This document shows, in pieces, positions 52,772-64,000 of a stretch of DNA of 64,000 bases. The translations under genes and the position numbers were made by a program. The first letter of the stretch is position 1; each line of letters begins with the position of its first letter. Source of the DNA: a virus (lineage: Duplodnaviria > Caudoviricetes); the IMG/VR virus record IMGVR_UViG_3300012984_000010; one strand, written 5' to 3'. The notes under the pieces are model-generated. The model was not told the DNA's origin and searched no databases. It saw nothing but the letters and a program-made list of their open reading frames with translations.

Positions 52772-52799
52772 TAGAACGGTTGGAGACTGGGAACCTTAA
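52772..52799 (-). promoter_or_regulatory. Class A promoter
   Basis: TTAAG-N15-CCGTTCTA; no ATG at +6; about 150 nt upstream of the fibre-like gene. Confidence 0.7.
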
Positions 52800-58469: not shown

Positions 58470-58666
58470 GGGGTATTAATCAGACGTTTTCAGTAACGCA
58501 TGATCAACCTCTTTCTTTTCGGTAAGGGTTTCGGAACGACGCGATTTCTTACAGGAGTAACTAAACTACAGCGCGAGAGATGGGTCTACTTGGCCCTTCC
58601 CCGTCAATGTCCAACCAGGGAGCGGGCCGCTTTGATGATGGATATAACGGGCAGCCCGCCAGCTTC

Positions 58667-59113
58667 TTAAGCACCAATCGTACGCATCAGATCCATCGAC
58701 ACCAGCTCGGACTCGGGCAGGCTGTCGCGAAGCCCATTTATCGTGTATTCCACGTAGTAGTGGTGCAGGCCAGGGCCATTCAGATCGTGGCGGATCTCCG
58801 TCACCAAAGCCCATTGATCCGTTGCTGCGTGGTACACTTCTTGTCCAGACTGGAATTTGGGCTTCTGGATCTCGTACAGGTCTGAGATGAATTGGCTCTT
58901 CCAGGTGGCGTCCCCAACCTGACGGTCAGCCGTCATCACCACACGGCCTTTTTGCATGACCGTCAGTCGAGTGTAGGTTTGGTTCAATCGAACCAGTAGG
59001 GTGAAGATCTGATCGAACGAAGTGACGGTCTGCCGAAGTGGCTGCATGCCAGCATCAGTGAAAGTACATTCCATGTCGAACGGGCCTGAGAATAGTTGGT
59101 TGCGTTTGGTCAT
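58667..59113 (-). CDS. Hypothetical protein, possible C-terminal SH3-like fold
   Basis: PKFQSGQEVYH...YYVEY...ESEL; class A promoter. Confidence 0.7.
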   Translation of the reverse strand: MTKRNQLFSGPFDMECTFTDAGMQPLRQTVTSFDQIFTLLVRLNQTYTRLTVMQKGRVVMTADRQVGDATWKSQFISDLYEIQKPKFQSGQEVYHAATDQWALVTEIRHDLNGPGLHHYYVEYTINGLRDSLPESELVSMDLMRTIGA

Positions 59114-61804: not shown

Positions 61805-62002
61805 GCCGATCCAAAATTTTTGGATCCTATGGGCGATAGCCTCTGATTCAGAATCGAGCCAAAAATAGGCCGGGGTCAAAATCCGGATAGATAGGGGGAT
61901 TTGACCTATTTGCCGTTTTGAGCGGGGCGCATACTGGATACGCCATTTTGGGAGATCTGTACAGCCCGAACGGATTATCGATCGGTTCGGCCAGACGGTC
62001 AT
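61781..62002 (-). CDS. Hypothetical protein
   Basis: ORF. Confidence 0.45.
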   Translation of the reverse strand: MTVWPNRSIIRSGCTDLPKWRIQYAPRSKRQIGQIPLSIRILTPAYFWLDSESEAIAHRIQKFWIGLFLAQMC

Positions 62003-62073
62003 TTAGCGGCGGCTGGTGGGCCGGCCCGTAGCTTCGCTATGGGGAGCCAGGCCAGTCGGCCGTTGATAGTTGT

Positions 62074-62277
62074 TCAGCCTACACGGTAACGGACCGCTAC
62101 TGTCCCGACCCCTCGCTTGAGTTGTTGAAGCCTCAGTTGACTCTGCTCAAGCTGCCTGGTCAGACCAGCATACTGACGTCGAAGCTCCCAACGTTCAAAC
62201 TCCAGCGTCACCACCCACCAACAGACCATGATGAGTAGCAGCCAGGCATCTAGGATGTCGATCAGCTGTTGTTTCAT
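62074..62277 (-). CDS. Small protein with TM segment and coiled coil
   Basis: Hydrophobic residues 5-26, then a heptad-like helix. Confidence 0.6.
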   Translation of the reverse strand: MKQQLIDILDAWLLLIMVCWWVVTLEFERWELRRQYAGLTRQLEQSQLRLQQLKRGVGTVAVRYRVG

Positions 62278-62280
62278 CTA

Positions 62281-62350
62281 GGATACTTGCTGGGATTCGA
62301 ACCCAACTCTCCACCCTTATCGGGTGTGTGCACCAGTACACCAAAGTATC
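62281..62350 (-). tRNA. tRNA-Ile(GAT)-like RNA with a 5-nt anticodon loop (non-canonical or pseudo)
   Basis: Acceptor GATACTT/AAGTATC; D arm GTGT-ACTGGT-GCAC; anticodon arm CACCC-GATAA-GGGTG; T arm TTGGG-TTCGAAT-CCCAG; no encoded CCA. Confidence 0.75.
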
Positions 62351-62418
62351 GATGCCAAGACTTGACTCGGTCCTAGCTGCCTCTTGGGCCAGCTAGGCGC
62401 TCCATGCATTCTGATCTA

Positions 62419-62446
62419 TATAACGGATCAGGTGGGGGAAAGTTAA
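62419..62446 (-). promoter_or_regulatory. Class A promoter driving the tRNA-Ile-like RNA
   Basis: TTAAC-N15-CCGTTATA; leader contains hairpin CCTAGCT..GCC-CAAGA-GGC-AGCTAGG. Confidence 0.75.
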
Positions 62447-62817
62447 TAGAGCTGTGGGCCTTTTTGAGGGGGTCTGGGTGGGGCCTCAATATTCGGCTGA
62501 GGCTTGATCGTATCGATCACCAACCTGATGGCTTGATCGAGCGTCAGGCACCCTATGCCGTCCGTCTGACCGTCTGACGCCCTCTTGAGCCGGTAGCCCG
62601 TCCCCTCGGGGACGATCGTGAAGCTGTTCAGCACCATACGGATACGATGATCCGAGTCATCGTAGTGAGAGCCTCCGATCAGTCGATCGTCACATAGGTG
62701 AACGTGGAGGCCCGCCAGTTTGAGGCGTTGGTAGGCGGATTCGATGGGCGTGAGGACATCCTCAGGGGTCCACTGTAGATCTTGAGCTATGTGGAGGATG
62801 GCGGGGCTACGTTTCAT
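62443..62817 (-). CDS. Hypothetical protein
   Basis: Class B motif (62829-62834) 11 nt before ATG. Confidence 0.7.
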   Translation of the reverse strand: MKRSPAILHIAQDLQWTPEDVLTPIESAYQRLKLAGLHVHLCDDRLIGGSHYDDSDHRIRMVLNSFTIVPEGTGYRLKRASDGQTDGIGCLTLDQAIRLVIDTIKPQPNIEAPPRPPQKGPQLY

Positions 62818-62837
62818 GATCCAAATCTTACACCAAA

Positions 62838-63050
62838 CTAGCTAGATTGAGTATTGAGATACTCAATTCGATTGATCTCACTGTGGATCGGGCATAAGAT
62901 CAGCACGTCTCCATAGCCTGGTTGTCGCTCCCACCTGCAACCGCATTGGGCCACATCGCCAACGAAGTTCCGGTTGAATGGATCGCCGTGTGGGATGGTC
63001 CGATCGTGAGGCTGGCCAGATGGGGCATGGCAGAAGCGGCACTTAGCCAT
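62838..63050 (-). CDS. Small Cys/His-rich protein
   Basis: CRFC...H...CGC...CPIH; ATG 63050 or 63059. Confidence 0.65.
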   Translation of the reverse strand: MAKCRFCHAPSGQPHDRTIPHGDPFNRNFVGDVAQCGCRWERQPGYGDVLILCPIHSEINRIEYLNTQSS

Positions 63051-63246
63051 TTGGTTCAAGCTGTTCTTTGGCGTCTTGGATCAGGGCGAGGATGTGGGTA
63101 TGGTTGGTCCGCTTAGGGTCGAAGTTGGCGGGGAACTTGATCGGTTTGCTGTAGAAGTGCTCTGGATGGGGATGGGCCAGGAACTGTTCGTAGTCGAGGA
63201 TCGCTTTCTCGTAGTAGGCTCGCCGTTCTTCGGTCAGTTGTGCCAT
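63043..63246 (-). CDS. Hypothetical protein
   Basis: ORF. Confidence 0.65.
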   Translation of the reverse strand: MAQLTEERRAYYEKAILDYEQFLAHPHPEHFYSKPIKFPANFDPKRTNHTHILALIQDAKEQLEPNG

Positions 63247-63322
63247 TTGCTCACGGCGTGGGCCTCGAACCCACTTCTCTCCCTTTTAACAAGGGTCGCT
63301 CTTCCTGTTGAACTAGCCGCAA

Positions 63323-63414
63323 ACCGTCGAGGGGGAGTTGAACCCCTGGGGCGACGTCTCGCCCGATTCTGAGTTATTGGATCAGATGCTGGCAACCGGC
63401 CAACTATTCGACTG
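63323..63414 (-). tRNA. tRNA-Sec/allo-tRNA-like 92-nt RNA with a 9-nt anticodon loop (non-canonical or pseudo)
   Basis: Imperfect acceptor CAGTCGAA/CTCGACGG; 6-bp D stem GTTGGC-CGGTT-GCCAGC; TCTGA-TCCAATAAC-TCAGA; variable arm GGGCGA-GACG-TCGCCC; T arm GGGG-TTCAACT-CCCC; no CCA. Confidence 0.65.
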
Positions 63415-63450
63415 GGGGCTGTGGGTCATGACTCCGTTGCCCTTGATTGA

Positions 63451-63478
63451 TAGTACGGCCGGGGTGGGCGGGAGTTAA
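63451..63478 (-). promoter_or_regulatory. Class A promoter driving the Sec-like RNA
   Basis: TTAAC-N15-CCGTACTA, about 35 nt upstream of the cloverleaf. Confidence 0.7.
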
Positions 63479-63690
63479 CGCTTTACTCCAACTTTTAGGG
63501 TCCTACCATTGTCTGGTTTTGGAGGTACATACTCCTTTAGACCCCCAATGTATATTTGTTCATGACGGATCTCCTTACTCCAAGGATTCCACCATACACA
63601 CTTTGCAATACGTTCACCCGTCTGGAAACTTTCGATTACCATGATGGGGCTGTCCGCTGTCTTCAACGTAACGAGGTCTCCTTCTTGCAT
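63475..63690 (-). CDS. YodC/DUF2158-like protein
   Basis: GDLVTLK...P.MVI...AKCVWW; SD AAAGGAGG; class B motif at 63716-63721. Confidence 0.7.
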   Translation of the reverse strand: MQEGDLVTLKTADSPIMVIESFQTGERIAKCVWWNPWSKEIRHEQIYIGGLKEYVPPKPDNGRTLKVGVKR

Positions 63691-63763
63691 GAGAACCTCC
63701 TTTCATCCCCTCACTTACACCAGCCCTACAGCTCGTTCGGGTCAAAACGAGCTGTGAAAGCAG

Positions 63764-63994
63764 CTAGATAGCCGTCAGCCGCACCACCTCAATCGATGTC
63801 CCGCTAGCCCAGGTGGTGCTTGTGCGGCCGTCCTCGAACGTGAACCTCATCGTTTCGTTTGAATTAAGCACCGTCTTTACGACAAGTGTGGGCTTCTGAT
63901 AGCAGGGCCACCGATCGCCTGGTCGCACCATACAGGCGGGGATCCGCATCGTCTGAATCTGGATCGAGTCCGATTCCCCTGTCATCTCGGACAA
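63764..63994 (-). CDS. Hypothetical protein (start may lie beyond the window)
   Basis: RIPACMVRPGDRW...MRFTFEDG. Confidence 0.55.
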   Translation of the reverse strand: MSEMTGESDSIQIQTMRIPACMVRPGDRWPCYQKPTLVVKTVLNSNETMRFTFEDGRTSTTWASGTSIEVVRLTAI

Positions 63995-64000
63995 CAGGCG

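What the first reader, a model, noticed from the sequence alone, without database searches (positions are those of the whole stretch)
63323..63478. Second tRNA mimic: Sec/allo-tRNA-like body with a 9-nt anticodon loop
SEEN: a 92-nt cloverleaf with a 6-bp D stem and CGGTT loop, a 6-bp variable arm, a 4-bp T stem with TTCAACT, and an 8-nt acceptor with two mismatches (8/4-like). The anticodon loop is TCCAATAAC with no U33, there is no CCA, and it has its own class A promoter. ESTABLISHED: a long D stem with a short CGGT loop and a long variable arm are tRNA-Sec hallmarks, and allo-tRNAs with 8/4 or 9/3 folds exist. INFERENCE: together with the 5-nt-loop tRNA 1 kb away, both tRNA-like genes here are broken specifically in the anticodon loop, in opposite directions. 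This suggests selection for non-decoding tRNA shapes rather than random decay.
Basis: partly seen in the sequence, partly recalled or inferred. Interest (0 to 1): 0.68.

Follow-up and report, generated by a model that had tools for sequence, protein, structure and literature searches.

The report
Degenerate allo-tRNA look-alike heading phage operon
A huge soil phage carries a real tRNA-shaped RNA gene of the rare "allo-tRNA" (selenocysteine-tRNA-like) type whose codon-reading loop looks unfit for decoding. It is fused to a second odd tRNA and a small gene behind one phage promoter, so it most likely serves as a cut-out, non-decoding tRNA mimic rather than a working tRNA.

Summary
Bases 63415..63323 fold into a 93-nt class-II cloverleaf with a 6-bp D stem (CGGUU loop), 6-bp variable arm, 4-bp T stem (UUCAACU), an irregular acceptor and no CCA, behind a consensus copy of the phage's own promoter.

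- the element abuts, with no spacer, a second irregular 74-nt tRNA;
- that tRNA's discriminator is followed by exactly 3 nt and the ATG of a 67-aa ORF;
- the tRNA look-alike 1 kb away has the same junction.

The only same-register relatives found in metagenomes are exact 8/4 allo-tRNA(UAU) genes with encoded CCA, each also followed by a tRNA. Against them, nine stem pairs have changed on both sides and still pair. By that comparison the "9-nt loop" is a Sec/allo-type 6-bp stem with a U.C terminal mismatch plus a 7-nt loop CCAAUAA (C33, A34).

Best reading (0.48): an allo-tRNA-derived, non-decoding tRNA mimic released by RNase P/Z, whose processing also creates a near-leaderless mRNA. Its function in trans is unknown. 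A recent pseudogene (0.25) and a weak decoder (0.14) are not excluded, because no diverged orthologue could be fetched.

The scan had already noted the sister element in this same window, not on other DNA.

The parts
63450..63478 (-). Phage 'class A' promoter: TTAAC (63478-63474), 15-nt spacer, CCGTACTAT (63458-63450). The predicted +1 is near A63444.
   Evidence: A motif scan finds about 30 copies, nearly all on the minus strand, against 8.4 expected. In 23 copies an ATG opening an ORF of at least 30 codons starts 4-7 nt (mode 5) after the 9-mer. The window encodes a sigma-70 family protein with regions 2 and 4 only.
63416..63444 (-). Predicted 5' leader of about 29 nt, removed by RNase P (inferred). 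It contains an ATG (63428) that opens a 15-codon frame running into the tRNA-like RNA.
   Evidence: The +1 position is inferred from the ATG spacing at the other promoters. Sequence read.
63323..63415 (-). Allo-tRNA/tRNA-Sec-like cloverleaf, 93 nt. Acceptor 5' strand 63415-63408; D arm 63404-63388; anticodon arm 63386-63368 (unpaired 63381-63373); variable arm 63364-63349; T arm 63346-63332; acceptor 3' strand 63330-63324; U63323 is the discriminator or last acceptor base.
   Evidence: MFE cloverleaf, z -3.07. Rfam tRNA-Sec 26.5 bits. ARAGORN at a relaxed threshold calls tRNA-Ile(AAU) of 92 nt. Nine compensatory pairs against allo-tRNA(UAU) loci.
63250..63322 (-). Second irregular tRNA: class I size, 7-bp acceptor, G73, no CCA. 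It starts at the base after the first element. Its anticodon arm folds as CCCUU/AAGGG closing a 5-nt loop; the decoding-type Leu(UAA) register is about 9 kcal/mol worse.
   Evidence: ARAGORN Leu(taa). Rfam tRNA 29.3 bits against a gathering score of 29. Fold. Hairpin energies -6.5 vs +2.3 kcal/mol. Its best match among 78 tRNAs is the tRNA-Thr(UGU) that follows allo-tRNA(UAU) in L028.
63247..63249 (-). Three-base spacer CAA between discriminator G63250 and the ATG. It occupies the place of CCA.
   Evidence: Direct reading. The same 3-nt spacing (UAG) follows the tRNA look-alike at 62350..62281. The chance of both is about 1.6e-5.
63043..63246 (-). 67-aa ORF, first gene of the unit. Its end overlaps the ATG (63050) of the next ORF.
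   Evidence: ORF lists. One 99%-identical protein in 5.8 billion, on a 308,895-bp JGI contig. No Pfam or PHROG match.
62838..63059 (-). Cys/His-rich small ORF (70-73 aa), overlapping the end of the 67-aa ORF.
   Evidence: No family match.
62443..62817 (-). 124-aa ORF, last gene before the next class A promoter (62446).
   Evidence: No family match.

Best explanation
The element is a genuine tRNA-shaped RNA gene descended from the allo-tRNA group (8/4, tRNA-Sec-like class-II tRNAs known from soil bacteria and phages).

Proposed steps:
1. A phage-specific promoter transcribes one precursor: a ~29-nt leader, this RNA, a second irregular tRNA, CAA, then the AUG of a 67-aa ORF and two further small ORFs.
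2. The intact tRNA elbow (D-loop GG, T-loop UUCAA) and acceptor/T stack make both RNAs substrates of host RNase P and RNase Z.
3. One RNase P cut at the zero-spacer junction forms the 3' end of the first RNA, which ends in discriminator U, and the 5' end of the second.
4. A cut after G73 of the second tRNA frees an mRNA that begins CAAAUG. This matches the phage's habit of putting the ATG at or next to +1.
5. The released 93-nt RNA probably cannot decode. It has no U33 (C33), an A34, a mismatched loop-closing pair that leaves a weak anticodon hairpin, and an irregular acceptor. It therefore acts as a stable tRNA mimic.

What the mimic binds is unknown. Candidates are a tRNA-targeting host factor (decoy), or SerRS and the CCA-adding enzyme.

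Shown: the fold, the promoter motif, the junction geometry, and kinship with allo-tRNA(UAU). Inferred: transcription start, processing, and lack of decoding. Speculative: the role in trans.
For: - Fold: MFE cloverleaf with z -3.07, kept in the 206-nt context.
- Promoter: a consensus class A promoter with no ATG at the usual 4-7 nt. 23 other copies have an ATG-led ORF of at least 30 codons at that spacing; the copies without such an ORF include those before the tRNA look-alike at 62350..62281 and before stretches that first-stage notes call non-coding.
- Junctions: zero spacer to the next tRNA. Both tRNA ends in the window are followed by exactly 3 nt and then the ATG of a 67-aa ORF, with joint chance about 1.6e-5.
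- Kinship: the only same-register hits among 241 million metagenome records, apart from the same phage, are exact 8/4 allo-tRNA(UAU) genes, each followed 2 nt later by a tRNA.
- Covariation: nine of 28 pairs changed on both sides and 100% of cells pair, against 36-51% when partners are slid.
- Second tRNA: its best match among 78 tRNAs is the partner tRNA-Thr of those loci.
- Decoding: the anticodon hairpin is -3.2 kcal/mol against -8.6 in the allo-UAU homologue. In relatives 70 of 72 tRNAs have U33, and A34 occurs only in Arg-ACG.
- Literature: Mukai et al. report allo-tRNA(UAU) species inactive in E. coli translation, and polycistrons of allo-like plus irregular tRNAs in soil metatranscriptomes (PMC5389517).
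Against: - No expression or end-mapping data exist.
- No diverged orthologue was recovered. L031 is 100% identical. So conservation of the odd loop and of the junctions is untested.
- If the only need were a leaderless mRNA, the promoter alone would do. The processing role therefore does not explain why the RNA exists.
- C33 occurs in otherwise good tRNA-Val genes of two related phages, so C33 alone does not prove loss of decoding.
- In related phages the excess of ORFs starting just after tRNAs is only marginal: 7 observed against 3.3 expected, P = 0.049.
- The allo-UAU similarity was partly forced by the search pattern, which fixed 22 bases.
Confidence: 0.48

Rival explanations
1. Recent pseudogene. 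A once-functional phage allo-tRNA (and its partner tRNA) lost function a short time ago. It is carried along in the 5' region of an operon with no role of its own.
For: - Defects are spread over several places, as in early decay: two acceptor irregularities, an extra C85, a 3-nt linker, a U.C closing mismatch, C33 and no CCA.
- Scores are far below those of tRNAs in related phages: 26.5 and 29.3 bits against 40-67.
- Mukai et al. describe allo-tRNA(UAU) pseudogenes with stem-destabilising mutations.
Against: - All 28 modelled pairs are intact despite about 35-40% sequence divergence from the nearest homologue.
- A consensus promoter is kept in front of the element.
- The zero-spacer and 3-nt-then-ATG junctions are exact and occur twice.
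- All three tRNA-shaped genes here have odd anticodon loops but intact D and T loops, which random hits would rarely give.
Confidence: 0.25
2. A working but unorthodox decoder: a class-II tRNA with anticodon AAU (or a modified form) reading AUU. It would be charged through its long variable arm (Ser) or by another synthetase, that is, a missense or supplementary tRNA.
For: - ARAGORN at a relaxed threshold draws a 7/5 tRNA-Ile(AAU) with a 7-nt loop CCAAUAA, A37 and A38.
- C32.A38 and U36-A37-A38 are normal loop features.
- C33 is tolerated in tRNA-Val of two relatives.
- Natural allo-tRNAs with many anticodons work in E. coli (PMC5389517, section 16, and the abstract).
Against: - A34 outside Arg-ACG is absent from 72 tRNAs of the relatives.
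- There is a loop-closing mismatch and a weak hairpin.
- The acceptor has a mismatch or bulge and an extra nucleotide.
- AUU is a minor codon here, 12.6 per thousand against 31.6 for AUC.
- Allo-tRNA(UAU) species tested by Mukai et al. were inactive.
Confidence: 0.14
3. A cis-acting leader structure or small upstream ORF that regulates the downstream genes, its tRNA shape being incidental or used only as a sensor.
For: - A 15-codon ATG frame starts in the leader and ends in the anticodon stem.
- The leader can pair with the T stem of the second tRNA in the 206-nt MFE fold.
Against: - The ATG lies 20 nt after the promoter 9-mer, not at the usual 4-7 nt.
- The full tRNA elbow, the variable arm and the kinship with CCA-bearing allo-tRNAs are not needed for such a role.
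Confidence: 0.06
4. A chance fold or part of a protein-coding region, with no RNA gene.
For: Short ORFs overlap the region on both strands: 53 aa on the minus strand, 98 and 46 aa on the plus strand.
Against: z -3.07. Three independent detectors see a tRNA shape. There is a homologue with compensatory changes. The promoter sits in front and a tRNA directly behind.
Confidence: 0.02

Closest known systems
(8/4) allo-tRNA, especially the allo-tRNA(UAU) group (Mukai et al. 2017, Nucleic Acids Res 45:2776, PMC5389517). Examples found here: L028/L029/L032/L041.
   Same: - Sec-like 6-bp D stem with a CGGUU loop, identical over GGCCGGUUGCC.
- Long variable arm, 4-bp T stem with UUCAACU, and a U/G-type discriminator.
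- Anticodon arm laid out as 6 + 7 + 6, with ..GAU C..AUAA .UC.. shared.
- Followed directly by a class-I tRNA.
- Soil or phage setting.
- The UAU group is reported as probably not used in translation.
   Different: - Ours has no encoded CCA.
- The acceptor is 7 bp plus a bulge (or 8 positions with 2 mismatches), and an extra C lies before the acceptor 3' strand.
- The linker is 3 nt instead of 1-2.
- The sixth anticodon-stem pair is U.C.
- The loop is CCAAUAA (C33, AAU) instead of CUUAUAA.
- It sits behind a phage-specific promoter and ahead of an ORF.
Polycistrons of allo-tRNA-like and other irregular tRNAs in forest and peat soil metatranscriptomes (Mukai et al. 2017, Fig. 4; PMC5389517)
   Same: An allo-like RNA co-transcribed with another irregular tRNA. 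Soil origin. Doubtful decoding ability.
   Different: Their sequences could not be compared because the supplement is not held. They were attributed to Acidobacteria and toxin-antitoxin neighbourhoods, not to a phage operon. No toxin-antitoxin gene was recognised here.
Bacterial tRNA-Sec (Rfam RF01852)
   Same: Best-scoring Rfam model. Long D stem with a short CGGU-type loop, long variable arm, extended acceptor with a short T stem.
   Different: 26.5 bits against a gathering score of 47. No UCA anticodon. Not an 8/5 (13-bp) branch. Not a member.
(8/4) tRNA-Ser of phages, here in TerL relatives G001/G003
   Same: The same phage lineage uses 8/4 Sec-like class-II tRNAs with a 6-bp D stem and tetraloop.
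   Different: Those have normal 7-nt loops with U33, Ser anticodons and clean 8/4 stems, and they score 33-47 bits. No sequence-level orthology to ours: R1 scores 15.5 bits.
tRNA-like processing signals: Haloferax t-elements, mitochondrial tRNA punctuation, MALAT1 mascRNA
   Same: A tRNA shape inside a longer transcript, used by RNase P/Z to define the ends of neighbouring RNAs. Here the cut would leave an mRNA starting 3 nt before its AUG.
   Different: Those are cellular or organellar. Here the setting is a bacterial virus with leaderless promoters. Processing is inferred, not shown, and the RNA descends from an allo-tRNA.

Membership tests
allo-tRNA (Mukai et al. 2017) | 12-bp acceptor branch split 8/4 or 9/3 | tested here: inconclusive
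   The T stem is 4 bp. The acceptor is 7 bp plus a bulged A, or 8 positions with 2 mismatches, and C85 is unpaired between the two stems. This is 8/4-like but not clean. The L028-type homologues are exact 8/4.
allo-tRNA (Mukai et al. 2017) | tRNA-Sec-like D arm: long stem, tetraloop-size loop | tested here: met
   6-bp D stem with a 5-nt CGGUU loop. The same core occurs in allo-tRNA(UAU) loci.
allo-tRNA (Mukai et al. 2017) | Long variable arm and G73/U73 discriminator (SerRS-type identity) | tested here: met
   6-bp variable arm with a 4-nt loop. U93 is the discriminator in the bulge reading. Charging itself is not testable here.
allo-tRNA (Mukai et al. 2017) | Longer (6-bp) anticodon stem with a normal 7-nt loop presenting an anticodon | tested here: not met
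   Five pairs plus a U.C mismatch. The loop is CCAAUAA with C33 and A34, or 9 unpaired nt.
allo-tRNA (Mukai et al. 2017) | Found as a sub-threshold hit of the tRNA-Sec covariance model | tested here: met
   RF01852 at 26.5 bits, E 0.017 in 2 kb, full-length alignment 1-91.
tRNA-Sec (RF01852) | Score at or above the gathering threshold; UCA anticodon; 13-bp (8/5) branch | tested here: not met
   26.5 bits against 47. No UCA. 4-bp T stem.
Canonical decoding tRNA (RF00005, ARAGORN default) | Detected at standard thresholds; U33; 7-nt loop closed by a 5-bp stem; 7/5 branch | tested here: not met
   Not called by ARAGORN at default settings. No RF00005 hit at the gathering score. C33. Mismatches at three stem positions in the 7/5 drawing.
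tRNA-like processing element (t-element type) | Cleavage by RNase P/RNase Z that defines the ends of flanking RNAs | not testable with these tools
   Only the geometry supports it: zero spacer to the next tRNA, and 3 nt from the discriminator to the ATG at two loci.

The most novel reading that the evidence does not exclude
This huge phage deliberately makes non-decoding, allo-tRNA-derived tRNA mimics from its own sigma-dependent promoters. They would serve two purposes at once. First, they would punctuate operons, so that tRNA-processing enzymes create leaderless mRNAs, a mitochondrion-like tRNA punctuation in a bacterial virus. Second, they would flood the cell with tRNA bodies lacking a usable anticodon loop, which could soak up host tRNA-targeting defence nucleases or other tRNA-binding factors.
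Probability: 0.2. Interest if true: 0.72.

Novelty: new variant of a known kind. Interest (0 to 1): 0.46.

Why it matters
Allo-tRNAs were discovered only in sequence data, and their commonest group (UAU) has no known function. Here one sits in a defined transcription unit of a huge phage, with a recognisable promoter, exact processing junctions and a comparison set of intact-looking phage allo-tRNA(UAU)/tRNA pairs. That turns the open question of what inactive allo-tRNAs do into testable ones. Is the RNA cut out? Does it receive CCA and serine? What binds it? Does the cut create the translated 5' end of a leaderless mRNA? It also adds to the evidence that this phage invests heavily in tRNA-shaped RNAs that are not ordinary decoders.

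Tried and rejected
- GenBank phages: no DNA match to 62000-64000 and no protein match to a 652-aa ORF.
- Whole genome: none is held for this window.
- IMG/VR: two DNA patterns and two neighbour proteins found nothing.
- Neighbour ORFs: no Pfam or PHROG family, and no toxin-antitoxin or integrase signal.
- The 67-aa ORF has a single 99% homologue.
- The single-sequence covariance model R1 found no second copy in the window. In four TerL-related phage contigs it gave only a 15.5-bit hit, to a tRNA-Ser.
- GTDB species genomes: six pattern hits, all in a different (protein-coding-like) context and not tRNA-like. The same holds for metagenome hits L027, L030, L034, L035, L037-L040.
- The idea that ORFs directly after tRNAs are a clade-wide rule is only marginal (P = 0.049).
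- Codon usage gives no reason for an AUU, UUA or UAU decoder.
- HIP1-type host signature: absent; only GATC is enriched two-fold.
- MAFFT alignment with the relatives' class-II tRNAs did not align structurally and was not used.
- The supplement of Mukai et al. with the polycistron sequences is not held.

Full report
WHAT IS THERE. The finding lies on the minus strand. Read 5' to 3', bases 63415..63323 give a 93-nt RNA whose minimum-energy fold is a class-II cloverleaf: -37.2 kcal/mol, z = -3.07, with 1 of 200 dinucleotide shuffles folding as well.
- The acceptor is 7 bp with a bulged A3. Drawn another way, it is 8 positions with two mismatches.
- A 3-nt linker leads to a 6-bp D stem closing CGGUU.
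- The anticodon stem is 5 bp and closes nine unpaired bases, UCCAAUAAC.
- The variable arm is 6 bp with a 4-nt loop.
- The T stem is 4 bp with the loop UUCAACU, followed by one unpaired C.
- The RNA ends in U and has no CCA.

The same cloverleaf is kept when the whole 206-nt predicted transcript start is folded. Rfam's best model is tRNA-Sec over its full length, at 26.5 bits against a gathering score of 47. ARAGORN misses the element at default settings. At a relaxed threshold it draws a 92-nt tRNA-Ile(AAU) in 7/5 form, with mismatches at 3.70, 49.65 and the loop-closing pair.

The base after the element (63322) is base 1 of a 74-nt class-I tRNA (63322..63249). ARAGORN calls it Leu(UAA), and Rfam tRNA scores 29.3 bits against a gathering score of 29. 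Its anticodon arm prefers a perfect 5-bp stem closing a 5-nt loop (-6.5 kcal/mol). The decoding-type register is +2.3 kcal/mol. Its discriminator G63250 is followed by CAA and then the ATG of a 67-aa ORF (63246..63043). The end of that ORF overlaps the ATG of a Cys/His-rich ORF, and a 124-aa ORF follows. The tRNA look-alike 1 kb away (62350..62281) has the same geometry: discriminator, 3 nt (UAG), then the ATG of another 67-aa ORF. An ATG opening at least 60 codons occurs at 0.4% of minus-strand positions, so both junctions by chance is about 1.6e-5.

THE PROMOTER IS REAL AS A MOTIF. TTAA(C)-N15/16-CCGT(T)(C)TAT occurs about 30 times, nearly all on the minus strand, against 8.4 expected. In 23 copies an ATG opening an ORF of at least 30 codons begins 4-7 nt (mode 5) after the 9-mer. 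This phage therefore appears to start most messages at or next to the ATG. The copy at 63478-63450 (CCGTACTAT) has no such ATG. The predicted +1 is near A63444, which leaves a ~29-nt leader before the tRNA-like RNA. The window encodes a small sigma factor with regions 2 and 4 only, a plausible reader of this motif. No intrinsic terminator is predicted nearby.

RELATIVES.
- Nothing similar is in GenBank phages or IMG/VR.
- The neighbouring ORFs are orphans.
- A metagenome scan for the D-arm core plus T loop at the right spacing gave 16 stretches.
- One of them (L031) is the same phage, 100% identical over 1888 nt. It gives no information on constraint.
- Four (L028, L029, L032, L041; two sequence variants) are 88-nt tRNAs that ARAGORN calls Ile(UAU). 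They have a clean 8-bp acceptor, 4-bp T stem, 6-bp D stem with CGGUU, a 6-bp anticodon stem GCCGAU/GUCGGC, loop CUUAUAA and an encoded CCA.
- These are textbook (8/4) allo-tRNA(UAU) as defined by Mukai et al. 2017 (PMC5389517).
- Each is followed 2 nt later by a tRNA-Thr(UGU), in phage-like surroundings of small orphan ORFs. L041 also carries GP88, DUF932 and an AAA_5 ATPase.
- The remaining pattern hits, and all six hits in GTDB species genomes, are in another register and look protein-coding.

Aligned to my single-sequence model, ours and the two allo-UAU variants keep all 28 pairs. Nine pairs have changed on both sides, and 36-51% of cells pair when partners are slid. The alignment is fitted to the model, and 22 bases were fixed by the search pattern, so this is good but not independent evidence. 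Independent of the pattern, the anticodon arm is laid out identically: UCUGAU|CCAAUAA|CUCAGA against GCCGAU|CUUAUAA|GUCGGC. Also independent, our second tRNA finds its best match among 78 comparison tRNAs in the Thr tRNA that follows allo-UAU in L028, though the margin is small. A homologous allo-tRNA + tRNA dicistron is therefore plausible.

THE PHAGE LINEAGE. Four IMG/VR contigs of 235-350 kb share a TerL-like protein at 41-44% identity.
- Two of them were examined in detail (G001, G003). They carry arrays of about 30-40 tRNAs scoring mostly 40-67 bits, and G001 a full-length tmRNA.
- Their tRNA-Ser genes are 8/4 with a 6-bp D stem and tetraloop. This is the phage (8/4) tRNA-Ser that Mukai et al. 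place in the allo group.
- They have no orthologue of our element.
- Among 72 of their tRNAs, 70 have U33. The two exceptions are tRNA-Val genes with C33, one in each of two relatives. A34 occurs only in Arg-ACG.

HOW TO READ THE LOOP. By comparison with allo-tRNA(UAU), the nine unpaired bases are a Sec/allo-type sixth stem pair that has become U.C (it is U.G in the homologues), plus a 7-nt loop CCAAUAA: C32, C33, A34-A35-U36, A37, A38. The hairpin is weak, -3.2 against -8.6 kcal/mol. In the 7-nt register, the three tRNA-shaped genes of this stretch read:
- C-C-AAU-A-A for this element;
- U-G-UUA-A-A for the second tRNA, or a 5-nt loop;
- C-G-AUA-A-G for the third, or a 5-nt loop.

All three keep D-loop GG and T-loop UUC. 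Odd anticodon loops in three of three, against 2 of 72 in relatives, is hard to get from random decay. However, this element also has acceptor-branch defects, and C33 alone is evidently tolerated in this lineage. Phage codon usage gives no demand for AUU, UAU or UUA decoders.

MECHANISM (BEST READING, 0.48). A phage-promoter-driven precursor is cut by RNase P at 63415 and at the zero-spacer junction. That second cut also makes the 3' end of the first RNA at its discriminator U, ready for CCA addition. RNase Z or an equivalent cuts after G63250, releasing an mRNA that begins CAAAUG, in line with the phage's leaderless style. The 93-nt product is a stable, probably non-decoding tRNA mimic. What it does in trans is not shown. 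It might be a decoy for tRNA-binding or tRNA-cleaving host factors, or a serine carrier charged through its long variable arm. Because the promoter alone could give a leaderless mRNA, the processing role alone does not explain the RNA, so I expect a role in trans.

RIVALS. A recent pseudogene (0.25) fits the scattered defects and the low scores. A weak decoder of AUU (0.14) fits the 7-nt reading and the tolerated C33. A cis leader or short upstream ORF (0.06) and chance (0.02) are minor.

COMPARISON AND NOVELTY. It works like, and descends from, the allo-tRNA group. It fails the test of a clean family member on the anticodon arm and only loosely meets the 8/4 rule. It is not tRNA-Sec. Inactive allo-tRNA(UAU) species, and polycistrons of allo-like plus irregular tRNAs in soil metatranscriptomes, are already published (PMC5389517). 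New here are the phage setting, the dedicated promoter, the exact tRNA-NNN-ATG junctions and the U33-less loops. I rate it a new variant of a known kind, of moderate interest.

LIMITS. There are no expression data. The supplement of Mukai et al. is not held. Earlier notes of this scan on the same genome treated the sister element at 62281-62446 in the same way. They also report suppressor tRNAs and Y-RNA-like tRNA mimics elsewhere in this roughly 475-kb phage. I used them as leads only.

Noticed in passing
window 63249-63322 (-): The second tRNA of the pair is ambiguous. Read as a 7-nt loop on the stable stem, it shows UGUUAAA (G33, triplet UUA, complementary to the UAA stop codon). ARAGORN's Leu(UAA) register costs about 9 kcal/mol more. 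It is most similar to a tRNA-Thr(UGU), with the UUGU tract apparently displaced by 2 nt relative to the stem.
   Followed up: partly
L048:15191-15265 (G001) and L050:9331-9402 (G003): tRNA-Val(GAC) and tRNA-Val(CAC) of two related huge phages both have C33 instead of the near-universal U33, in otherwise normal tRNAs. This may be a lineage-specific trait, perhaps linked to evasion of a tRNA-targeting factor.
   Followed up: no
window 62416-62351 (-) and 63428-63381 (-): Both leaders in front of the tRNA look-alikes contain an ATG-led short frame (30 and 15 codons) that runs into the tRNA shape. The 30-codon one stops at the UAA inside the anticodon loop of the 62350..62281 element.
   Followed up: no
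window 63416-63440 (-) with 63270-63320 (-): In the 206-nt fold, the leader tract CCCACAGCC pairs with the T-stem and acceptor 5' strands of the second tRNA. This is a possible alternative structure competing with tRNA folding.
   Followed up: no
window 52775-52799, 58646-58670 (-): Two further consensus class A promoters lack an ATG within 40 nt downstream, like the ones in front of the tRNA look-alikes. They may head other non-coding RNAs.
   Followed up: no
L036:1779-1870 (+): A 92-nt tRNA with anticodon UUU (Lys), a long variable arm and encoded CCA sits on a short metagenome contig. A class-II-shaped tRNA-Lys is unusual.
   Followed up: no
L026:433-520 (-) and L033:1904-1991 (-): Two soil contigs share an ~90-nt stretch with the same D-arm core and T arm as the element, but with a 15-18-nt insert in the anticodon region. 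They differ from each other at a few positions. This may be a five-way-junction allo-like RNA or a coding region.
   Followed up: no
L051:748-820 (-) and L048:16421-16773 (+): Related phage G001 carries a class-I tRNA with anticodon UCA (opal-reading, 64.7 bits on the general tRNA model) and a full tmRNA with the tag ANDNALVPMQMAA.
   Followed up: no
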